Translations under genes and position numbers: made by a program
Shown here: in pieces, positions 15,609 through 43,543 of the stretch
Position numbering within the stretch: position 1 is the stretch's first letter
How the letters are laid out: every line of letters starts with the position of its first letter
DNA from: Shigella phage Sf12
DNA length: 47,647 bases
Sequence record: MF158039
Reading direction: 5' to 3' (one strand)
The notes under the pieces: model-generated
Told to the model about the DNA's origin: nothing
Seen by the model: only the letters and a program-made list of their open reading frames with translations
The model's database searches: none

Positions 15609-16570
15609 TTTTCGTATTTTGACATGTAGTATGAAGGAACCTGTAGCTCCATAGAGTCCTCAATCATGTTGTAGCCAGGCCAGCGGTCGTACTTCTTGCA
15701 CTGCTTGTATGTCGCCAGGGCTTCCATGTATTGACGCCGACCTAAGGCAATATGTGCATCTGATAGCGTGTAGCACATTGGTAAGTAGGGAGCCTTTTTT
15801 TCTTGAGCTAAAAGCCGAACTAAAACTTTACGTTTTTCGTTGAAAGCACGAACAAACAAATCTCTTTGCAAAGCCATTTTTAGCAGGTAACCATAATTGG
15901 CAGCTAGCCTACCAAACCCTTCAGGAGATGCGTCTGATGTCGTTTTAAAATCTGTAATTATGACCGTATCACCAACAACATCAACGTGGTCCAGCCTAAC
16001 CTTAACTCCGCACTCATTAATCTCTCCGAAGATTGATAGTTCCCTCTGAGCGGTTTCGCTGTTAACTATAGCGTTGTAAGCGGGAATGCCACACAACACC
16101 TCTCGCATCGCTTGTACGGTGTCAAAGTCCTTAGCTGATACAATCTCGCGGCCTTCGGCTTTAATCTCGCTAGATCGCTGGATATCCCACCATACGTTGA
16201 GTGATTCACCAGTCAGCGTCAGCATCTCCATCAATTCAGGGTAATCCTTGCCAGAAGTTCCCGTGATTCCCATCGCCTTAAGTCTTGCGGCTAATGCAGT
16301 CTTGCTTGTGATAAGGTCTTCAAACTCTTCCTGTGCTGGCTGTCGGTAATAAGTAGAATCGAATATGTCACTTTCCAAAATCATTGTATGTGCTGCGCTA
16401 CCAAATGAAAGCGCCCTGCTTTTCTCACTCTCCTGAAATCTAAATGCAGCAGGGCATGTTGAAAATATCTTAGCAAGACCGCTACCCGATACGTGATCAA
16501 CTTCTGAATGATAAGCATCATTTGTTAGCTCATCTCTCGTAAAGACCTTGAATTTCATTTTTCCCACCAT
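15593..16570 (-). CDS. PD-(D/E)XK recombination exonuclease (YqaJ/RecE-like)
   Basis: LDHVDVVGDTVIITDFKT D...D-x-K core; recombination-module context. Confidence 0.6.
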   Translation of the reverse strand: MVGKMKFKVFTRDELTNDAYHSEVDHVSGSGLAKIFSTCPAAFRFQESEKSRALSFGSAAHTMILESDIFDSTYYRQPAQEEFEDLITSKTALAARLKAMGITGTSGKDYPELMEMLTLTGESLNVWWDIQRSSEIKAEGREIVSAKDFDTVQAMREVLCGIPAYNAIVNSETAQRELSIFGEINECGVKVRLDHVDVVGDTVIITDFKTTSDASPEGFGRLAANYGYLLKMALQRDLFVRAFNEKRKVLVRLLAQEKKAPYLPMCYTLSDAHIALGRRQYMEALATYKQCKKYDRWPGYNMIEDSMELQVPSYYMSKYENSTNS

Positions 16571-17078
16571 GCTCTAATGTGAACTTGTTTTTCTTGTTGA
16601 ACTCTAAGCGAACCTTTATGGCCTCCTCCCTTGTATCGAACCTTCCTAGATTTACTGTCTTACCATTTAATCCGGCCCTTGCTATCCACTTGCTTCTATT
16701 TTTATCCCAACAAACACCACAAAAACCAGAAGTGTTATCATCCCTCATTTTTGAATTTCTATTGTTAACTGACTGAGTTACCACTCTAAGGTTTGATATC
16801 TTATTATCATCTCTAAATCCATTAACGTGGTCTATTTGATGCCCTTCTGGTATCTTTGATTTCAAAATCTCCCAAATAGCCCTATGAGCCATGTACTTCA
16901 CATTGTCAATTGTTATGTATATGTATCCTCTCTTCTCATTCTTAACGCCCGCCCTTTTATTTGCAAACCTTGAATTCCACATTTTACATGTCCTTGATGA
17001 TGGGAAATCTGATTCTGGTCTATTCTTCCATATCAGATAACCATCTTCATGGTATGTGAAGTATCTACTCCAATCCAT
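16530..17078 (-). CDS. HNH homing endonuclease
   Basis: QIDHVNGFRDDNKISNLRVV motif. Confidence 0.8.
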   Translation of the reverse strand: MDWSRYFTYHEDGYLIWKNRPESDFPSSRTCKMWNSRFANKRAGVKNEKRGYIYITIDNVKYMAHRAIWEILKSKIPEGHQIDHVNGFRDDNKISNLRVVTQSVNNRNSKMRDDNTSGFCGVCWDKNRSKWIARAGLNGKTVNLGRFDTREEAIKVRLEFNKKNKFTLEHGGKNEIQGLYER

Positions 17079-18348: not shown

Positions 18349-18736
18349 TCAGTATGTATCCGTTTTGATTATTCGTGCTATTTTGTATATCGGTGTAAAC
18401 CTCACCTAAATACGTTTTGATGCTCCGTGCGCCGCATGGATGCTGAGTGTAACTCTTGTAACCAATGTATCCACCAATTTTGCACCCTATCTATATCTAT
18501 ATGCATTTCCTCCTTAACAGGAAATCAAACATAGTCTTTTAGAAAAACATACCAACATAGCAATAGAGAGTAGTTACACTATATACAAACAAATATAGTA
18601 ATAATAATAATTACTCTAAACCCTTATTATATAAGGATTTTATAGTGTAACTAATGCGTATCTGTGCGTAAAAAGCGTATACAATTTTCTGCGGATGAGA
18701 TTGTATACATCGAGTTACATCGGTTACGCGTATATC
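18349..18736. other. AT-rich non-coding control region between divergent operons; candidate origin/regulatory hub
   Basis: tatctatatctatatgcat, (TAA)n at 18598..18613, inverted repeat gtatacaat-N14-attgtatac (18670..18702). Confidence 0.5.
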
Positions 18737-18783
18737 AAATAGCACGATTTGCTAAAGACTCCCGCATCAGCCTTTGCTATAGT
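18737..18783 (+). promoter_or_regulatory. Junction cassette copy: palindrome (18740..18754), -10-like TATAGT (18778..18783)
   Basis: aaatagcacgatttgctaaag; 23-bp gap; leader ccatcgaaacgaaac. Confidence 0.55.
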
Positions 18784-18823: not shown

Positions 18824-18928
18824 ATGACTAACTTCGCAACCAACGTAATGGCCTTCACCTTCGGCGTAGCAACTACTGGTTTCTTCGTGTGGGTACTGCT
18901 GCTGGCTTCAAAATTTAACGGTTTCTAA
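18824..18928 (+). CDS. Small hydrophobic membrane peptide, 34 aa
   Basis: MTNFATNVMAFTFGVATTGFFVWVLLLASKFNGF; tightly coupled to lipoprotein gene. Confidence 0.45.
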   Translation: MTNFATNVMAFTFGVATTGFFVWVLLLASKFNGF

Positions 18929-18938
18929 GGTGAATAAG

Positions 18939-19160
18939 ATGAAAAAATTAATCGTTATCGCAGCAATGATGTTAGGTGGGTGCTCTACGATGCCAGAACG
19001 CACTTGTACGGCGACTTATGAGTCAGGCGGAATGAGTTACTCGGTTTATGTTTTTGGCACGCAGAAGCGCGGTGATGAGCTTTTACTTAGGGCTGGATAT
19101 CCATTCTCGTTCCAGTATGTCTCTGAGCGGAATTTTAAAGACCACGATTGCGGTGGTTGA
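18939..19160 (+). CDS. Small lipoprotein, candidate Cor/Llp-like superinfection-exclusion factor
   Basis: Signal peptide with lipobox MLGGC; convergent on distal tail-tip genes. Confidence 0.55.
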   Translation: MKKLIVIAAMMLGGCSTMPERTCTATYESGGMSYSVYVFGTQKRGDELLLRAGYPFSFQYVSERNFKDHDCGG

Positions 19161-19162
19161 TA

Positions 19163-19190
19163 AAGAAAAAGCCCCGAAAGGGGCTTTAGT
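19163..19190. terminator. Bidirectional terminator
   Basis: aaagccccgaaaggggcttt flanked by A/T runs. Confidence 0.65.
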
Positions 19191-19716
19191 CGTTTGTGAA
19201 TTTTGGTTTGATTACTTCACCATTTGATCCATTCCTTAATTCATAAATCATGTCAAATTCAGAGTTTGTATAAGCATCAACAGTAATCCAATCCTCTGGA
19301 AAAAACTCACCAAATGAACCAGTATACTTGTCATCATCATAGTCACCGATAAACTTACTATAAAAAACCCTTAAATCAGTTCTTGAAAAGTCATAATCAT
19401 CATCACCTAAATCAGACCATGAAATATTGAAGCCCTCTCTCAAGAATGGATCATCTTTAGGCTCCATGACGCCACCTTCATTTAAAACATAATAACCATC
19501 AGAACCATCCTCTGGATTGTACCAATCAAAGTTTCTATAAAGCCTGTATCCATTTAGGATATTAGATAGAATTGAACTAAACTCAGAAAGCCCATACCAT
19601 GAACCGGAAATCTCATCATAACCATACTCAAGATCCCCAATGTCTACATCAAAGTAAAATGGTCCATGATCAACACCACCAACACTCGCCCAAACCAAAG
19701 TTTTTTTAATGCTCAT
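19186..19716 (-). CDS. Hypothetical acidic Trp/Tyr-rich protein at the distal end of the tail module
   Basis: ORF track; position after J. Confidence 0.45.
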   Translation of the reverse strand: MSIKKTLVWASVGGVDHGPFYFDVDIGDLEYGYDEISGSWYGLSEFSSILSNILNGYRLYRNFDWYNPEDGSDGYYVLNEGGVMEPKDDPFLREGFNISWSDLGDDDYDFSRTDLRVFYSKFIGDYDDDKYTGSFGEFFPEDWITVDAYTNSEFDMIYELRNGSNGEVIKPKFTND

Positions 19717-19725
19717 AATTTCCCC

Positions 19726-20442
19726 TTAATCGTAGTTTGATGTATTAATTGCCACAGCAGTAACTCCAGTGTTTATTGAACCAGTCTGAGAGCCAGGTAC
19801 AGTATTGTATCCAGCCGCCCTTATTCTTGTTCTCGAACCGTTGTAGTTAGCTGTTGTGTATAGGTCAATTGTATACCTCTGAGGTATACCTCCAACAATT
19901 TGCTCAGATATTATCGCTCCTAACCTCCTCGGTGATACAGCCCATGATCCAGATAATAATGAGCCGGTATCTATGTTTATACCTCCCCCAGCTTGCCCTG
20001 GTGTTCCAACCGTTCTTAAATCTGAAAGCACCTTCGTTTCGTTAGTTAGTATTAACTTGCCAGCAGCATCCCATATTGCCATGCCCCAATCAGGTAATGT
20101 TTGCGTGAATATCCCGAAAATATATACTGTTGCAGTAAAATTTTCTCCGCTTGAGTTTTGCGCTGTGAAGTAAACATTTCCAGAGTTTGGTCCACTTGTG
20201 AATCTGTAAGCAGCAATTCCCGTACCTGTGTTTGTCTCTGTCGTCTTTGCGAAAACCATGCAAGGTATATCATTTGGAACTGGTATGTAAACTGAACCTG
20301 TCATACCACCACTACCAGAATGGGTTGTTTTTTTGTATAAAGCAAAAGGTGTTGAGTTTGGGGTTATGAATGGATTTCCATTAACATCAATCATTGCACC
20401 ATAAGACATTATTGATTCTCCAGATAAATTACAAGGTAGCAC
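19726..20442 (-). CDS. Hypothetical Gly/Thr/Ser-rich tail-module protein (possible fiber or receptor-binding component)
   Basis: ORF track; composition; position after J. Confidence 0.45.
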   Translation of the reverse strand: MLPCNLSGESIMSYGAMIDVNGNPFITPNSTPFALYKKTTHSGSGGMTGSVYIPVPNDIPCMVFAKTTETNTGTGIAAYRFTSGPNSGNVYFTAQNSSGENFTATVYIFGIFTQTLPDWGMAIWDAAGKLILTNETKVLSDLRTVGTPGQAGGGINIDTGSLLSGSWAVSPRRLGAIISEQIVGGIPQRYTIDLYTTANYNGSRTRIRAAGYNTVPGSQTGSINTGVTAVAINTSNYD

Positions 20443-20714
20443 TCTTCTGCTGGATAAACTCCATCTCCAGGCGTTGTTGTTGCTGATATCGTTATAGCGT
20501 TTCCACTTGCGGTTATCTTTCTGGCTGCCTCATTTCCACCAACACTCAAGCTGACTGTGTAACCTAACTTTGTTCCAGACGGTATTGTGTATGAGTAACT
20601 CCCTGAAGTTTGACCAGTCTCAAGCTTAACAACCGCAACAACCGTGACTGGCTTAATCCCATAGTTATTGTAATTACCATTTGCATCATATGTAGCAATC
20701 CCATATGCAGCCAT
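20409..20714 (-). CDS. Hypothetical tail-module protein, 101 aa
   Basis: ORF track. Confidence 0.45.
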   Translation of the reverse strand: MAAYGIATYDANGNYNNYGIKPVTVVAVVKLETGQTSGSYSYTIPSGTKLGYTVSLSVGGNEAARKITASGNAITISATTTPGDGVYPAEECYLVIYLENQ

Positions 20715-20761
20715 AAATTCCTCCTATTGATAAGGGCAATTCCATTTGCCCATTCTATCAG

Positions 20762-23700
20762 TTAGTAAACTCCAGTCAAACGGCCAATCTGAACACGAAG
20801 CCTTCCGTTAGCGTCAGCAACAGATATTGTCTCATTTGTTTGCTTCATTCTACCCTCTCCAGCCGTAGAGCCGTTATTTTCGAACGTTCCACCCTTGTCA
20901 AGTCTCCATCCGACAGAGCCAAATACGTAGTTGTTAGACTGAATTGCACCACCAATCTTCGCGTTAGTGATTGAACCGTCCTGAATAACCGCGCTTTGTA
21001 TGAATACCTGGTTATTCTCGACAACGAAAGGCAGCGACCACTGACCGGAACCAGAACTAATGCCGTTACTGATTGCAAACCTGTTAGCATCGAAAATGAA
21101 CTGACTACGAACATTTCCACCACTACCGGTTAACTCCATGCTCATGCCAGCACCGTACTCAACTCCATTGTACTTAAGGCCTAGCTTAACGCCGTACTGA
21201 ACACCAACGCCTTCAACTGTAGCGTAAGAGTCGAGCTTCTGATTCAAAGCCGCCTCGTTATCACCAAGCCTTGCGCTGAGAGCCGTATCAGCAGTAGCCC
21301 TCGCTTCCGTCTCGGTTGCTAGCGCTGTTTCGATAGTTGTAATCTGACCAACAATCTCATCATCAATTTGCGCCTTAAGCTGCGTAAGAGCCTCTACACG
21401 AGCCTCAGTTTCGTTGGCTATTAGATTAACAGCCTGACGATACTCAGCCTTCCTGGCTCCATTTTCACGCCTCATAACACGAACATCAGTATCGTTTGCC
21501 AATGCGTTCTCAATTATTGCCTCGGCCTGGTTCTGAATGTCAGCATTTGCATCTATCGCGTTCTGGAGTAGATACTTGTATCCATCTGAGTTTTCAATAT
21601 CAACCTTAATTTCTCCAATGATTGCACTCACGTCATCCGAAGCCATACCCCTGACAAAATCAGTCCATTGCGATACGTTACCAATCCTGTCGATCGTTCT
21701 TCCCCTATACCAGATCACCTTTCCTGCCGGGAGCGTCGTGTGCCAATACTCAAACTGAGGGTAAGGAACGAGAGTTAACAATGAGGCATTCTCAGGGGTG
21801 TATGTCCCATCGCCATTATCAGCAACTTGCTGCAATTCCACATAAGCAGTATCACCACTATTATTGCCAAAACCCCACTTAACACGGATGCCAAATACTT
21901 CATCATCTGAAGCCGTGATGACCTGCAATGGCTCAGGCTCACCAACCTTACCAGTCAAGCTAACTGTTGTAATTTCAGACCATGCCGATACTGATTTTTG
22001 GTCAGTTACAGCACGAACCCTGACGTCGTAAATGCCAGCGTAGATGCCTTCAATATCAACCTCAGTGTTAGCCGTCTCCGGTACATTAATCCAGTTTCCG
22101 TTATTCTTACGCCATTGCACGTTGTATGTTTTCGCATACTGCACCTTGTCGTAACCGATAACCATCGTCTCAACGCTCATGCCCTGAACTACTTTGCTGT
22201 AACTAGTAACCGTAATGTTCTTCGGTGGTAAAATCCTGTCAGGGTCAACTATGCTTGTTGGCCTGTCGTCGATGTTTACTCCGTAGTCAATCTCATCGTA
22301 CTTGTTAGGGTCATACTGAACAGCCGTGATGCTGTACTGGAATGAATCCTCTCCGTCCGTGTTGGCTTTTTGAATCCCGGTCACAACATATTGCTGTAAA
22401 GCAAGATTCTGCTTGTCGATTGCAAATACCGTATCTGGCTGCGGCGTGAAGCTGAATGCTGTATTCAGCTCAAGCGTCAACTTATCGGCAGATACTGAAG
22501 CGATAGTCCTGTACTCCGGGCTTCCATCTGGCTTGTTGATTAAGATTCTGTCGCCAGGGTCAGCATCAATAGCGAACGGAACAAAAACCTGCAAACCAGT
22601 AGCCTCCACGATTCGACCAGAAAGGTTTAACGTGTAATTGCTTGACCAAGCTTGGTCATTAACAGCAATGACATCACCAATCATAGGAATCATACCTTCG
22701 AGTCCGGTGGTGAATGTTATTGTTTCGCTACGCAAGTTCGTTTTAAGGAGCCAACGACCACGACGGTTAGCCTCGCTACGCCTTACGCATCCAATTGCAG
22801 TCAGGTCTACAGGGTTATACCCAAACCTGCGAGTTGCCTCAAGGTCAAACACTGGCTCTACGTCTTGCTGGTAGTTGTTCTCTACATCATCAAACTGAAC
22901 GTTGGCAGTCGTGTACAAACTCTTATCACTAGCAAACGTGCGGTTGAATAAACCATCGACTACGTTATCATTTGTGAATACGTAACTTGGTTGGCGCGGC
23001 CTGTCAACTACAATCCCAATTTGCTCACCATCATAGAAGGTTAATCCACGGAAAATGGAACAGATGTCACGAATAATCTGATACGCTTCCACTTTCTGCT
23101 GAATGACAACGTTACAAGTATATCGCGGCTCCATTCCACCCTTACCATCCGGGACCATCTGGTCGCAGAATTGCGCAGCTTCATACAGACCCCACTTATC
23201 AATCTCAACTCCAAGCTCTCGCTGGTCAAGCCCATACCTCTGACTGACTACCAGGTCATATAAAACCCACGCCGGGTTATCTGACCATGCCATCTTGAAA
23301 GTTCCATCCCAAGTTCCGCTATAAGTCCGCGTTGCTGGGGTGTAGTTTGTTGGGACTCTAATTATCTTCCACCTTTTCTTGATTGCGATAGGCGGCAACC
23401 CGTTAGGAAAAAGGTCTGAACTGAACTCTACATAAACAAGCGCTGTAAGTGGATAACGGAATTTGGCGTCAATTACTTCCTGATAGGTCGTAATCTGCAT
23501 TCCGTTTACCAGAGTGCTGCTTGTTGAGTCTGGCGTTAACTTCCTAATACGAACAAGAGCGCTGCTAAACTCGGCTGGTAAGTTAACCCTGATACTGCGG
23601 TCGTAACCTGTTGTAGTTTTACCGTTAGCCACGCCTCTGGTATATTCAGTGTACGCTGAGCCATTAACTGATAAATCGATTGCATATTCACATGTTGTGC

Positions 23701-24157
23701 CATTTAAATCTCCATTCTCTTCTTGCTTAACGAGTCTAGGCCAGAACAGCTTGACGCGAATTGCTGATAGCTGACTGTTGTTTACTGCTATGATGTAAGG
23801 TGTATCGTTGTTAATCTCGCGGCTAACCTGAATCTCTGATGCTGCACCATCTAGTCCGGCGATATAGTCTTGAGACTGAGTGCCAGGGCGAAATTCTGCG
23901 GTCACTCCTTCGTAGTTGAATGAGTTATCCTGGTTTTGCACGGGAACGTCAGCAAGGTAAAGGTCTTTAAGTGAAAAGCTTGAGTCAACCTCGCCATCAG
24001 CAACGGCCAGTAGCACCTTAATCTTGTTGAGTGAAATCAGGTTATCTTCTTGCTCTACAGGTGTGTGCTGCTTTTGGCTACCACCCTTGCTTCCATAAAT
24101 CTTTGGCAAATCGGCCATATCATATAACCTCGTTGTTTGTTTAACCATTTGTGCCAT
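20762..24157 (-). CDS. Central tail fiber / host-specificity protein (lambda gpJ-like); probable true start at Met 24118
   Basis: YSGTWDGTF ... DKWGLYEAAQFCDQMVPDGKGGMEPRYTCN resembles lambda J conserved core as recalled. Confidence 0.9.
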   Translation of the reverse strand: MAQMVKQTTRLYDMADLPKIYGSKGGSQKQHTPVEQEDNLISLNKIKVLLAVADGEVDSSFSLKDLYLADVPVQNQDNSFNYEGVTAEFRPGTQSQDYIAGLDGAASEIQVSREINNDTPYIIAVNNSQLSAIRVKLFWPRLVKQEENGDLNGTTCEYAIDLSVNGSAYTEYTRGVANGKTTTGYDRSIRVNLPAEFSSALVRIRKLTPDSTSSTLVNGMQITTYQEVIDAKFRYPLTALVYVEFSSDLFPNGLPPIAIKKRWKIIRVPTNYTPATRTYSGTWDGTFKMAWSDNPAWVLYDLVVSQRYGLDQRELGVEIDKWGLYEAAQFCDQMVPDGKGGMEPRYTCNVVIQQKVEAYQIIRDICSIFRGLTFYDGEQIGIVVDRPRQPSYVFTNDNVVDGLFNRTFASDKSLYTTANVQFDDVENNYQQDVEPVFDLEATRRFGYNPVDLTAIGCVRRSEANRRGRWLLKTNLRSETITFTTGLEGMIPMIGDVIAVNDQAWSSNYTLNLSGRIVEATGLQVFVPFAIDADPGDRILINKPDGSPEYRTIASVSADKLTLELNTAFSFTPQPDTVFAIDKQNLALQQYVVTGIQKANTDGEDSFQYSITAVQYDPNKYDEIDYGVNIDDRPTSIVDPDRILPPKNITVTSYSKVVQGMSVETMVIGYDKVQYAKTYNVQWRKNNGNWINVPETANTEVDIEGIYAGIYDVRVRAVTDQKSVSAWSEITTVSLTGKVGEPEPLQVITASDDEVFGIRVKWGFGNNSGDTAYVELQQVADNGDGTYTPENASLLTLVPYPQFEYWHTTLPAGKVIWYRGRTIDRIGNVSQWTDFVRGMASDDVSAIIGEIKVDIENSDGYKYLLQNAIDANADIQNQAEAIIENALANDTDVRVMRRENGARKAEYRQAVNLIANETEARVEALTQLKAQIDDEIVGQITTIETALATETEARATADTALSARLGDNEAALNQKLDSYATVEGVGVQYGVKLGLKYNGVEYGAGMSMELTGSGGNVRSQFIFDANRFAISNGISSGSGQWSLPFVVENNQVFIQSAVIQDGSITNAKIGGAIQSNNYVFGSVGWRLDKGGTFENNGSTAGEGRMKQTNETISVADANGRLRVQIGRLTGVY

Positions 24158-34680: not shown

Positions 34681-36156
34681 CTATGCGAGAGGTTCGCTTA
34701 AGTTTTCCACCTTATAAGCGTAAACGCCAGCCAAGGCATCGGATGAGTTCCTTATGCCAACTATTGTAAGCTTGAAGCATTTAGAGTCAGCTGTAGCTCC
34801 TGGTGATGTGGTTACGTAGTGCTCAGATGTGACTCCAAAAACTCCTGGCTTGAACACGCTATTCCAAAGAGCAGTCCCAGGAGGCATGCTTGTTACTATC
34901 GCTGTGTAGTTTTTCAACTTATCAGCTGCAACTGTAGTGAGTGAGTCAATCTGGTATGCAGTGTGCCTTATTGAAGCGATGTTTGATGTACCGGTATTAC
35001 TAACACCAACCCACAGCCCCTTAGCGGCAACTGTCGCATTCTTCTCTCCGGTAAGAGCGAACCTTATTGTTGTCTCTCCAGGTATATCTATAAAGTCAGT
35101 ATCCGTCTGATTGATCAACCCTGACCTTACGCCTGAAGCTACGTTATAAGAGGCTGGACCAGCCACCCCCTGTAAGCCCTGAGGTCCCGTAGGGCCCTGC
35201 AATCCACGCTCACCCTGCGGGCCTGCCGGGCCTTGTGGTCCAACTGCACCAGCTACACCTTGTAAGCCTTGCGGGCCAGCTGGGCCTTGCTCACCTTGCA
35301 GGCCCCTCTCGCCTTGTGGGCCTTGAATACCTGCCGGACCTGTCGGGCCAGTTGGGCCTGCTGGACCAGCGGAACCCTGTGGGCCTGGAGCACCCTGTGC
35401 GGCCAGTAACTCCCAGGAATCGCTAACATCTGGATTTTCTCCGGTCACGGCGGCGGTAGCAAACCAGCTTGAGTTATTGAATGTAACAACGTCATCTTTA
35501 ACGTAAGCTGTCGCTGCGTCGTACATCCCGCGGAATGTTAAGCCTGCCGGACCAACTGGGCCCGCATCACCTTTATCACCTTTAGGGCCAGCAGGACCTG
35601 CTGCGCCAGTTGCACCGATAGGGCCTTGCGGACCAGCCTCGCCAGTTTCACCTTGAGGACCTTGCGGGCCTACGGGGCCAGCTGGACCAGTTTCGCCTTT
35701 AGCACCTGCCGCGCCTGCCGGGCCGGTAGCACCTGTTGGGCCTTGAGGACCCTGTGGACCAATAGCTCCTGCCGGGCCCGCTGGACCCTGTGGACCAACC
35801 GGACCTTGTGGGCCTGCTTCACCTGAGCCTCCTTCTTCATCACTTACAAAATCACCTTTCGCCAGCGCTGAAAGATAAGCACCATCTTCGAAGTGGGCAT
35901 TGCCAAACCTGCGCCAGCCCTGGGCTAGATATCTGTTAACCCTGTTAACTAATCCCTGAATTGTGGTATCGGATGTCACCATGAAGTCTTCAACGTTGTT
36001 TGCTGTTCCCTTCGCCATCTTCATGCCAAAGAGGGTGCCGCTCAGCATCTGCACGTCGCCATATGGCTGGAATCCTGATGAAATCATCATTTTTACGTTT
36101 CTGGCTAAGATTTCAGGTGAATTCCCTACTGCCATAGCAATTTCTGTGTAAGCCAT
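34681..36156 (-). CDS. Collagen-like triple-helix repeat protein (fiber-like structural protein)
   Basis: Two long Gly-X-Y tracts, e.g. [34 protein letters not shown]. Confidence 0.8.
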
Positions 36157-43467: not shown

Positions 43468-43543
43468 TGGTGTTCCGCGCTGGACTCGAACCAGCAACTG
43501 AGACTTAGGAGGTCTCTGCGTTATCCTGTTACGCCAGCAGAAC
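43468..43543 (-). tRNA. tRNA-Arg (anticodon CCU, decodes AGG)
   Basis: Hand-folded cloverleaf: acceptor GTTCTGC/GCGGAAC, D stem GCGT/ACGC with GG in loop, anticodon stem GAGAC/GTCTC loop CTCCTAA, T arm GCTGG-TTCGAGT-CCAGC, encoded CCA. Confidence 0.85.

What the first reader, a model, noticed from the sequence alone, without database searches (positions are those of the whole stretch)
19186..20714. Three uncharacterised genes downstream of gpJ, one of them strongly acidic and aromatic-rich
They occupy the position where lambdoid or T1-like phages carry accessory fiber or receptor-binding determinants. None shows a motif I can name. The 176-aa Asp/Tyr/Trp-rich protein directly abuts the lipoprotein locus.
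Basis: inference. Interest (0 to 1): 0.4.

Follow-up and report, generated by a model that had tools for sequence, protein, structure and literature searches.

The report
FhuA receptor cassette with swappable extra gene
Two of the three genes after the tail-tip gene J are the known receptor-recognition pair of FhuA-using T1-like phages, and the third, acidic one belongs to a rare, fast-changing and exchangeable add-on family whose role is still unproven.

Summary
The window is Shigella phage Sf12, a T1-like phage of the Drexlerviridae.

**The first two genes are already known.**
- ORF-A (101 aa) and ORF-B (227 aa) are homologues of T1 gp32/gp31 and phi80/N15 gp22/gp23.
- Together with the Cor lipoprotein, this pair marks phages that use FhuA.
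- This supports a receptor-binding role for ORF-B.

**The third gene is the unusual part.** ORF-C is 176 aa, with pI 4.05 and 19% aromatic residues.
- It is an insertion. In 75 of 80 related cassettes, cor follows ORF-B within 25-175 bp.
- It is an orphan. A search of 1.84 billion representative proteins found only its own family.
- It is under purifying selection (dN/dS 0.12-0.19).
- It is exchanged for very different proteins between cassettes whose ORF-A, ORF-B and cor are 96-99% identical.
- Every protein found in this slot shares a roughly 20-residue N-terminal motif.

**My best reading (inference):** ORF-C is a dispensable accessory of the tail tip, anchored by its N-terminus, that modulates host recognition. 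The main rival is a non-structural cargo gene, for example one that counters host defence.

The parts
20762..24157 (-). gpJ homologue (central tail fibre / tip attachment protein, 1131 aa). It is the upstream anchor of the locus.
   Evidence: ORF listing. phmmer against PDB sequences gives T1 gp33 (9l9p_S) at E = 0 and lambda J (8iyk_J) at E = 4e-101.
20409..20714 (-). ORF-A, 101 aa. Homologue of T1 gp32 and N15/phi80 gp22. It is the small partner of the receptor-binding protein and probably a tail-tip adaptor.
   Evidence: - phrog_557, E 2e-30.
- 55% identical to T1 gp32 and 99% identical to Sd1 gp27.
- The homologue in BASEL phage JulesPiccard is annotated 'putative tail tip protein'.
- Strong SD sequence AGGAGG upstream.
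19726..20409 (-). ORF-B, 227 aa. Homologue of T1 gp31 and N15/phi80 gp23. Candidate FhuA receptor-binding protein.
   Evidence: - phrog_425, E 3e-66.
- tblastn finds it in 347 phage records, including T1, phi80 and JLBYU37/60, at 48-52% identity.
- AF2 model: pLDDT 79.7, pTM 0.78.
19186..19716 (-). ORF-C (Sf12 gp36), 176 aa, acidic and aromatic-rich. This is the lineage-specific 'third-slot' gene. It has a conserved N-terminal motif (about residues 7-26), a variable middle, and a conserved C-terminal part of about 60 residues within its own family.
   Evidence: - 100% match to Sf12_gp36; only 5 proteins found among 5.8 billion clusters.
- An exhaustive profile search of 1.84 billion representatives finds only its own family.
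- No Pfam, PHROG, NCBIfam, PADLOC or PDB hit.
- dN/dS 0.12-0.19.
- N-terminal motif shared with L098 (0 of 10000 shuffles) and Sd1 gp25 (1 of 10000).
- GC 35.2%, against 44.3% for the window.
19168..19187 (.). Bidirectional hairpin terminator (AAAGCCCCTTTCGGGGCTTT) shared by the J-A-B-C operon and the convergent cor operon. It also marks the 3' boundary of the exchanged segment.
   Evidence: Terminator scan finds it on both strands. It is conserved in Sf12, Sd1, L002 and L003 while the coding sequence before it differs.
18939..19160 (+). cor, the superinfection-exclusion lipoprotein (73 aa from the ATG; lipobox LGGC). It is the FhuA-specific partner of the cassette.
   Evidence: NCBIfam NF047972 'phage exclusion lipoprotein Cor' at 50.2 bits against a cut-off of 31. 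phrog_1119, E 2.5e-28. 72% identical to T1 Cor.
18824..18928 (+). 34-aa single-pass membrane peptide immediately upstream of cor, probably co-transcribed with it.
   Evidence: tblastn finds it at 59-88% identity in the same position in Sd1, Opt-719, Phagiculus, JulesPiccard and L002-L004.

Best explanation

**ORF-A and ORF-B.** They are the conserved pair (T1 gp32/gp31, N15/phi80 gp22/gp23) that, with the convergent Cor lipoprotein, makes up the FhuA-type receptor-specificity cassette.
- ORF-B is the receptor-binding protein. It consists of two beta domains with the same fold as the LptD-binding receptor-binding protein of phage Oekolampad.
- Its most conserved stretches are predicted to be unstructured when the protein is modelled alone. 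They probably fold onto the tail tip (inference).
- ORF-A is probably the adaptor between the C-terminus of J and ORF-B (inference).

**ORF-C.** It is not part of the canonical cassette. It sits in a 'third slot' between ORF-B and the terminator, and this slot exists only in the Sf12/Sd1 lineage.
- Slot proteins share a roughly 20-residue N-terminal motif: W, then 4-6 residues (usually 5), then [IVL]-x-x-GPF-x-h-D-[VI]-[DE].
- Behind the motif they carry very different acidic, aromatic-rich bodies.
- These bodies are exchanged between phages whose ORF-A, ORF-B and cor are nearly identical.

**Most likely mechanism for ORF-C (inference).** It is made together with the receptor-binding protein and docks on the tail-tip complex through the conserved N-terminal motif. 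It displays its variable body as a dispensable accessory that tunes host recognition, for example by contacting a surface glycan or a second surface component. FhuA would remain the terminal receptor.
For: **Shown for ORF-A and ORF-B**
- Homology of ORF-A and ORF-B to the T1/phi80/N15 pair, and synteny J-A-B-cor.
- The literature ties this cassette to FhuA use.
- The A-B pair also sits next to J without cor in Klebsiella Webervirus and an Aeromonas phage, so it travels with J rather than with cor.
- ORF-B model pLDDT 79.7. Low confidence falls on residues 1-19 and 105-126, which are the most conserved stretches.
- The Oekolampad paper reports that the tail-proximal part of that receptor-binding protein is poorly ordered.

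**Shown for ORF-C**
- It is the last gene of the operon, 9 nt after the ORF-B stop, with SD sequence AAGGGGA, and it ends at a shared terminator.
- The third gene is absent in 75 of 80 IMG/VR cassettes.
- Sd1 has ORF-A, ORF-B and cor at 99.0, 98.7 and 95.9% identity to Sf12, but a different 186-aa protein in the slot. The exchange boundaries lie exactly at the SD sequence and the terminator.
- L097 has ORF-B 99.1% identical to Sf12, but its slot protein is only 46.6% identical.
- The N-terminal motif is shared by all slot proteins: L098 scores 19.6 bits (0 of 10000 shuffles) and Sd1 gp25 scores 8.0 bits (1 of 10000).
- Acidic, aromatic composition is conserved across the family, there is no Cys, and there is no hydrophobic segment.
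- dN is about 5 times that of ORF-B at similar dS.
Against: - There is no direct evidence that ORF-C is in the virion or touches ORF-A, ORF-B or J.
- The ORF-C structure model failed (pLDDT 48), so no fold argument is possible.
- The usual logic for an attached adhesin would predict co-variation with its docking partner. None is seen beyond one residue, ORF-B N225, which may simply hitch-hike with the exchanged segment.
- T1, phi80 and most relatives infect through FhuA without any such protein.
- One relative (L096) carries an in-frame stop at codon 11 of the slot gene. So any adsorption role is at best auxiliary.
- Low GC (35%) and replacement at one site also fit a cargo gene unrelated to adsorption.
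- FhuA use by Sf12 itself is inferred from the cassette. It has not been measured.
Confidence: 0.5

Rival explanations
1. ORF-C is a non-structural cargo gene sitting in a permissive insertion site at the end of the tail operon. It would be a cytoplasmic acidic protein acting on the host, for example a counter-defence inhibitor, decoy or DNA-mimic-like protein. It would have nothing to do with adsorption.
For: - Present only in one lineage, and replaced by very different genes at exactly the same site.
- AT-rich relative to its neighbours (35% against 44-46%).
- Strongly acidic (pI 4.05).
- No signal peptide or membrane segment.
- Evolves fast.
- Apparently inactivated in L096.
- Orphan status is typical of such accessory genes.
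Against: - It has no promoter of its own and is tightly coupled to the receptor-binding gene, giving late, stoichiometric co-expression, whereas most counter-defence genes act early.
- No hit to Pfam families, which include ArdA and Ocr, or to PADLOC.
- The low-confidence model predicts mostly beta strand and the sequence is aromatic and Gly-rich, which is unlike the known helical DNA mimics (own knowledge).
- A conserved N-terminal motif in front of interchangeable bodies is hard to explain for an inhibitor. It is typical of proteins that dock on a common partner.
Confidence: 0.3
2. ORF-C is a dedicated assembly chaperone for the receptor-binding protein or the J tip. It would resemble tail-fibre assembly proteins, which are encoded just downstream of the fibre gene.
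For: - Its position immediately after the receptor-binding gene, and its size of about 175-190 aa, match tail-fibre assembly proteins (own knowledge).
- Acidic and soluble.
- Co-expressed with ORF-B.
Against: - No Pfam hit at all, including no Caudo_TAP hit.
- Nearly identical ORF-B proteins (98.7-99.1%) are paired with slot proteins that are unrelated or only 47% identical. This is the opposite of the chaperone-client co-variation expected.
- Homologous receptor-binding proteins in T1, phi80 and more than 300 other phages need no such gene.
Confidence: 0.07
3. ORF-A and ORF-B, and by extension ORF-C, are membrane-associated helpers of Cor in superinfection exclusion rather than virion proteins. 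The KanT1 paper proposes this, and the PHROG names ('outer membrane protein', 'membrane associated protein') imply it.
For: Co-occurrence of ORF-A, ORF-B and Cor in FhuA-targeting BASEL phages, together with the authors' suggestion (PMC13164509). PHROG names.
Against: - ORF-A and ORF-B are co-oriented with J and converge on cor.
- The A-B pair occurs next to J without cor in Klebsiella and Aeromonas phages.
- ORF-B resembles a solved receptor-binding protein.
- Two independent comparative studies assign receptor specificity to this locus.
Confidence: 0.08

Closest known systems
FhuA-type receptor-specificity cassette downstream of gpJ (T1 gp33-gp32-gp31-cor; N15/phi80 gp21-gp22-gp23-cor)
   Same: - The gene order is the same: J, a roughly 100-aa protein, a roughly 225-aa protein, then the Cor lipoprotein.
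- ORF-A is 55% and ORF-B 53% identical to the T1 proteins, and Cor is 72% identical.
   Different: Sf12 carries an extra 176-aa gene between the receptor-binding gene and the terminator. T1, phi80 and 75 of 80 surveyed cassettes have only 25-175 bp there.
Receptor-binding protein of phage Oekolampad (Bas18) bound to Shigella flexneri LptDE (PDB 9rpt chain C)
   Same: - Both are encoded just after a J-like gene next to an exclusion lipoprotein.
- In both, the tail-proximal part is poorly ordered.
   Different: - Only 10% sequence identity, and no sequence-level match in the PDB.
- The receptors differ: LptD for Oekolampad, FhuA (inferred) for Sf12.
- I did not inspect the Oekolampad locus for an ORF-C-like third gene.
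Sd1 gp25 (Shigella phage Sd1), the protein in the same slot of the closest sequenced relative
   Same: - Same position, similar length (186 aa against 176 aa) and acidic, aromatic composition (pI 4.58, 16% aromatics).
- It shares the N-terminal motif ...IYQGPFMIDIE....
   Different: - The rest of the protein shows no detectable similarity (BLASTP E 0.67; hhalign probability 2.4%).
- It is a singleton in the 5.8-billion-cluster database.
T-even gp38 adhesins and tail-fibre assembly proteins (lambda Tfa, Mu/P2 type)
   Same: These too are small proteins encoded directly after the receptor-recognition gene, with a conserved attachment end and a variable remainder exchanged by recombination (own knowledge; gp38 variability is described).
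   Different: - No sequence or profile similarity.
- ORF-C varies independently of its presumed partner ORF-B.
- Virion association has not been tested.

Membership tests
FhuA-type receptor-specificity cassette (J / gp22-like / gp23-like / Cor) | A gp23-like protein of about 225 aa, with more than 30% identity over its full length to members from FhuA-dependent phages | tested here: met
   ORF-B is 48-52% identical over 99-100% of its length to T1, phi80 and JLBYU37/60. phrog_425, E 3e-66.
FhuA-type receptor-specificity cassette (J / gp22-like / gp23-like / Cor) | A gp22-like protein of about 100 aa between J and the gp23-like gene, on the same strand | tested here: met
   ORF-A hits phrog_557 at E 2e-30. 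It is 55% identical to T1 gp32. Gene order is shown.
FhuA-type receptor-specificity cassette (J / gp22-like / gp23-like / Cor) | An adjacent Cor exclusion lipoprotein | tested here: met
   NF047972 at 50.2 bits, above the cut-off of 31. phrog_1119. The lipobox is visible in the translation.
FhuA-type receptor-specificity cassette (J / gp22-like / gp23-like / Cor) | Infection depends on FhuA | not testable with these tools
   No receptor data for Sf12 were found in the paper library.
Small-siphophage receptor-binding protein fold (Oekolampad RBP, PDB 9rpt_C) | Structural similarity of the whole protein | tested here: met
   [not shown]
Small-siphophage receptor-binding protein fold (Oekolampad RBP, PDB 9rpt_C) | Detectable sequence homology | tested here: not met
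   [not shown]
Tail-fibre assembly chaperones (Pfam Caudo_TAP) - considered for ORF-C | Profile match to the family | tested here: not met
   No Pfam family at E <= 1 and no PHROG at E <= 0.01.
Tail-fibre assembly chaperones (Pfam Caudo_TAP) - considered for ORF-C | Co-variation with the tip of the client fibre or receptor-binding protein | tested here: not met
   ORF-B is 98.7-99.1% identical in Sd1 and L097, while the slot protein is unrelated or 46.6% identical.
Acidic DNA-mimic anti-restriction proteins (Ocr, ArdA) - considered for ORF-C | Strongly acidic protein | tested here: met
   pI 4.05, net charge -23.
Acidic DNA-mimic anti-restriction proteins (Ocr, ArdA) - considered for ORF-C | Sequence or profile similarity to a known family | tested here: not met
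   No hit in Pfam, PHROG, NCBIfam, PADLOC or PDB.
Acidic DNA-mimic anti-restriction proteins (Ocr, ArdA) - considered for ORF-C | Early expression, or packaging into the virion | tested here: inconclusive
   Gene order places ORF-C last in the tail operon with no promoter of its own. Transcription timing and virion content were not measured.
Exclusion lipoproteins (Cor/Llp) - considered for ORF-C | Signal peptide with a lipobox cysteine | tested here: not met
   ORF-C has no Cys. Its maximum 19-residue hydropathy is 0.68.
'Third-slot' protein family defined here (Sf12 gp36, Sd1 gp25, L098 type) | N-terminal motif (W, then 4-6 residues, usually 5, then [IVL]-x-x-GPF-x-h-D-[VI]-[DE]) in a gene located between the gp23-like gene and the terminator | tested here: met
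   Alignment of 11 loci. Shuffle tests gave 0 of 10000 for L098 and 1 of 10000 for Sd1 gp25.

The most novel reading that the evidence does not exclude
The third slot encodes a modular family of exchangeable tail-tip accessories. A common N-terminal plug would dock on the FhuA receptor-binding complex, and interchangeable acidic, aromatic bodies would supply a second, rapidly switchable specificity. That specificity could be for a glycan, for a second outer-membrane component, or for escape from Cor/Llp-blocked FhuA. This would be a siphophage counterpart of the T-even gp38 adhesin principle, layered on top of a fixed protein receptor.
Probability: 0.25. Interest if true: 0.65.

Novelty: new variant of a known kind. 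Interest (0 to 1): 0.4.

Why it matters
The locus downstream of gpJ is currently used to predict, and to re-engineer, the receptor specificity of T1-like phages. Those schemes assume a receptor-binding protein, one small accessory protein and an exclusion lipoprotein.

A lineage of Shigella phages carries a further gene in this cassette. That gene is exchangeable and fast-evolving, and it has a conserved N-terminal motif. This could add a layer to host-range determination that receptor-prediction models do not yet capture. If the rival reading is right, the same site is instead a hot spot for counter-defence cargo.

The structural link between the FhuA-type and LptD-type receptor-binding proteins also matters. 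It suggests that at least two of the four 'unrelated' receptor-binding families in this locus share one ancestral fold.

Tried and rejected
**Searches for relatives of ORF-C**
- tblastn of ORF-C against 50,697 phage records gave no match. Sf12 itself is evidently not in that collection.
- Pfam, PHROG, NCBIfam, PADLOC and PDB-sequence searches with ORF-C or its profile gave nothing.
- The IMG/VR scan with the ORF-C profile returned only Sf12.
- The exhaustive profile search returned only its own family.
- No paralogue of ORF-C exists elsewhere in the window.

**Structure of ORF-C**
- AF2 with a 5-sequence alignment gave pLDDT 48, which is unusable. I therefore ran no fold search on it.

**ORF-C against Sd1 gp25**
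- Full-length comparisons were not convincing: BLASTP E 0.67, hhalign probability 2.4%, full-length HMM rank 47 of 5000 and global z about 2.5.
- Only the N-terminal motif test was significant.

**Other negative results**
- The search for residues in ORF-A or ORF-B diagnostic of third-gene presence found none in ORF-A and three in ORF-B (positions 64, 86, 225). With 7 against 9 related sequences this is weak and possibly hitch-hiking.
- The Rfam, tRNA and repeat scans found nothing in the locus.

**Literature**
- The Sf11 structure paper concerns a chi-like phage and is not informative here.
- The Sfin-1 proteome concerns a different cassette.
- The Doore 2018 paper is not held in the library.

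**Not attempted**
- I considered a fused ORF-B+ORF-C AF2 run and dropped it, because the tool returns no inter-residue error map and an interface could not be read.
- One call failed on a length limit.
Full report
**Identity of the window and check of the observation**

The 176-aa ORF is 100% identical to Sf12_gp36 on a 47,647-bp contig, so the window is Shigella phage Sf12. The closest annotated relative at this locus is Shigella phage Sd1 (Drexlerviridae, Rogunavirinae, Wilsonroadvirus).

Three minus-strand ORFs follow the 1131-aa gpJ homologue at 20762-24157. J matches T1 gp33 in the PDB at E = 0.
- ORF-A lies at 20409-20714 (101 aa).
- ORF-B lies at 19726-20409. It is 227 aa from the ATG that overlaps the ORF-A stop. 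Homologues support this start rather than the upstream GTG.
- ORF-C lies at 19186-19716 (176 aa).

Each ORF has a Shine-Dalgarno-like sequence. ORF-C starts 9 nt after the ORF-B stop. ORF-C ends at a bidirectional hairpin terminator (19168-19187), which it shares with the convergent cor gene.

The composition claim is correct. ORF-C has pI 4.05, net charge -23, 13.6% Asp, 19.3% aromatic residues and no Cys.

**ORF-A and ORF-B are the known FhuA-type cassette**

ORF-A hits phrog_557 (E 2e-30) and ORF-B hits phrog_425 (E 3e-66). The plus-strand lipoprotein is Cor, with phrog_1119 and NCBIfam NF047972 scoring above its cut-off.

ORF-B has homologues in 347 phage records. They include T1, phi80, the mEp phages and the FhuA-dependent phages JLBYU37 and JLBYU60, at 48-52% identity over the full length. 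In T1 the order is gp33 (J), gp32, gp31, then cor. In phi80 it is gp21, gp22, gp23, then cor.

The literature describes this locus in three ways.
- The BASEL paper calls it the locus that encodes terminal-receptor specificity in small siphophages (PMC8594841).
- The KanT1 paper shows that Cor plus these two proteins track FhuA use across BASEL phages. It found no structural match and suggested a role in exclusion instead.

My results favour the receptor-binding reading.
- The A-B pair sits next to J without any cor in Klebsiella Webervirus and in an Aeromonas phage.
- A 19-sequence alignment gave a good ORF-B model, with pLDDT 79.7, pTM 0.78 and two beta domains.
- Foldseek missed this match.
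- The low-confidence parts of the model (residues 1-19 and 105-126) are the most conserved sequence stretches. The Oekolampad study likewise found the tail-proximal part of its receptor-binding protein poorly ordered. I infer that these stretches fold only on the tail tip.

**ORF-C is an insertion into that cassette**

I surveyed 80 IMG/VR loci that encode an ORF-B relative.
- In 75 loci, cor starts 25-175 bp after the ORF-B stop.
- In three loci there is no recognisable cor.
- Only Sf12 and Sd1 have a gene-sized gap, of 569 bp and 607 bp.

Sd1 is 99.0% (ORF-A), 98.7% (ORF-B) and 95.9% (cor) identical to Sf12. Yet it carries a different 186-aa protein, gp25, in the slot. In the DNA alignment, similarity stops at the SD sequence (GATTAAGGRGAAAT) and resumes at the terminator.

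ORF-C has no match in any family library or in the PDB and none in 50,697 phage genomes. The 5.8-billion-cluster protein database holds only five members. An exhaustive profile search of 1.84 billion representatives found only its own cluster and one fragment. Sd1 gp25 is a singleton.

ORF-C is nevertheless a real gene. dN/dS is 0.12-0.19. Its dN is about five times that of ORF-B in the same pair of genomes (0.138 against 0.026) at similar dS. It is AT-rich, at 35.2% GC against 46.3% for J and 44.3% for the window. The same holds for Sd1 gp25 and the L002 copy.

**The slot holds a family with a common N-terminus and interchangeable bodies**

I followed ORF-C and ORF-B relatives into public assemblies. 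This gave 11 loci with a third gene, all with the same order: J, ORF-A, ORF-B, slot gene, cor.

They fall into several sequence types.
- Three ORF-C subtypes that are only 47-57% identical to each other: Sf12/L090/L100, L002/L003/L004/L099, and L097/L096.
- A very different type in L098.
- Sd1 gp25.

Three of these loci are especially informative.
- L097 has ORF-B 99.1% identical to Sf12, but its slot protein is 46.6% identical.
- L003 has a divergent, phi80-like ORF-B (46% identical), yet it carries an ORF-C-type protein.
- L096 has an in-frame stop at codon 11. This is a possible pseudogene, although an assembly error cannot be excluded.

All slot proteins share an N-terminal motif:
- Sf12: LVWASVGGVDHGPFYFDVDIG
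- L098: IRIWFYGNGIYIGPFSMDVDM
- Sd1: FVFWVTNNTHIYQGPFMIDIEW

A profile of the first 32 residues of the ORF-C family scores L098 at 19.6 bits (0 of 10000 shuffles reach it). It scores Sd1 gp25 at 8.0 bits (1 of 10000), and both matches lie at the N-terminus. Full-length comparisons of Sd1 gp25 with ORF-C are not significant.

Within the ORF-C family, conservation varies along the protein.
- The C-terminal 60 residues are the most conserved, with mean column identity of about 0.85.
- Residues 80-115 are the least conserved, at about 0.57.

Acidic, aromatic composition is kept across the family, and Sd1 gp25 has pI 4.58 with 16% aromatics. No membrane segment or lipobox is present.

**Interpretation**

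*What is shown.*
- ORF-A, ORF-B and cor form the canonical FhuA-type cassette.
- ORF-B has a receptor-binding-protein fold.
- ORF-C is a lineage-restricted, selected, fast-evolving and exchangeable gene, co-expressed with the receptor-binding gene.
- ORF-C is not needed for FhuA recognition in general.

*What is inferred.* Interchangeable bodies behind a conserved N-terminal motif are the usual architecture of phage proteins that dock on a common virion partner and present a variable surface. The gene is also coupled tightly to the receptor-binding gene. I therefore favour a dispensable tail-tip accessory that tunes host recognition while FhuA stays the terminal receptor. Retention of cor supports that last point.

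*The main rival* is a cytoplasmic cargo gene, such as a counter-defence or host-interaction gene, in a permissive site. Low GC, orphan status, same-site replacement and apparent loss in L096 all fit this reading. The absence of co-variation with ORF-B removes one expected signature of physical attachment.

*The chaperone reading* is unlikely, because nearly identical ORF-B proteins are paired with very different slot proteins.

Neither main hypothesis can be settled with sequence tools. The ORF-C model failed (pLDDT 48), and no complex prediction was available.

**Novelty and verdict**

The locus as a whole is a known kind. Its ORF-A and ORF-B genes are members of a described, though experimentally thin, family.

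Two points appear to be new relative to the papers I could search.
- A third slot exists that holds a modular orphan family.
- The FhuA-type protein is linked structurally to the solved LptD-type receptor-binding protein. The preprint calls these families unrelated.

I rate the finding as a new variant of a known kind, of moderate interest.

Noticed in passing
window 18824-18928 (+): A 34-aa single-pass membrane peptide (MTNFATNVMAFTFGVATTGFFVWVLLLASKFNGF) lies directly upstream of cor. It is conserved at 59-88% identity in the same place in Sd1 (where the record lists no gene), Opt-719, Phagiculus, JulesPiccard and L002-L004. It may be a partner of Cor.
   Followed up: partly
window 16530-17078 (-): A 182-aa ORF whose sequence looks like an HNH plus AP2-type DNA-binding homing endonuclease. 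That reading is from the translation only; no family search was run. Its 3' end overlaps the start of the RecE-like exonuclease gene. The corresponding Sd1 region has no such gene between the exonuclease and the 64-aa ORF.
   Followed up: no
window 34681-36156 (-): A 491-aa protein with long collagen-like Gly-X-Y repeats. It explains the local GC peak of 0.577 at 35-36 kb. It is presumably a virion surface or fibre protein.
   Followed up: partly
window 43468-43543 (-): A tRNA-Arg (anticodon CCU) gene. It is the only RNA family hit in the window.
   Followed up: no
window 20752-20779 (-) and the hairpin just downstream of the J stop: A good sigma-70-like site (10 of 12 matches, with an extended TG) overlaps the end of J, just before ORF-A. 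A short GGGCAA...TTGCCC hairpin follows the J stop. T1 has an annotated terminator at the equivalent place. ORF-A, ORF-B and ORF-C may therefore be partly uncoupled from J transcription.
   Followed up: no
window 20680-20714 and 20375-20409 (N-termini of ORF-A and ORF-B): ORF-A and ORF-B begin with similar sequences: AYGIATYDANGN in ORF-A and SYGAMIDVNGN in ORF-B. These are conserved in their homologues (alignments). They may be a shared docking strand for the J tip.
   Followed up: no
L096 3694-4230: The slot gene of this relative (ORF-B 96.9% identical to Sf12) has an in-frame stop at codon 11. That leaves a 129-aa ORF starting at an internal Met. It is either a pseudogene or an assembly error.
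   Followed up: partly
window 18349-18748: A 400-bp non-coding stretch lies between divergent gene blocks. It contains a 17-nt inverted repeat whose arms are 341 nt apart (18373-18389 and 18731-18747). It is possibly a regulatory region for the cor operon.
   Followed up: no
L087 4208-4594 (-): In one cor-less FhuA-type cassette, a 128-aa protein with a lipoprotein-like signal sequence lies on the opposite strand after the ORF-B homologue. It may be an alternative exclusion protein.
   Followed up: no
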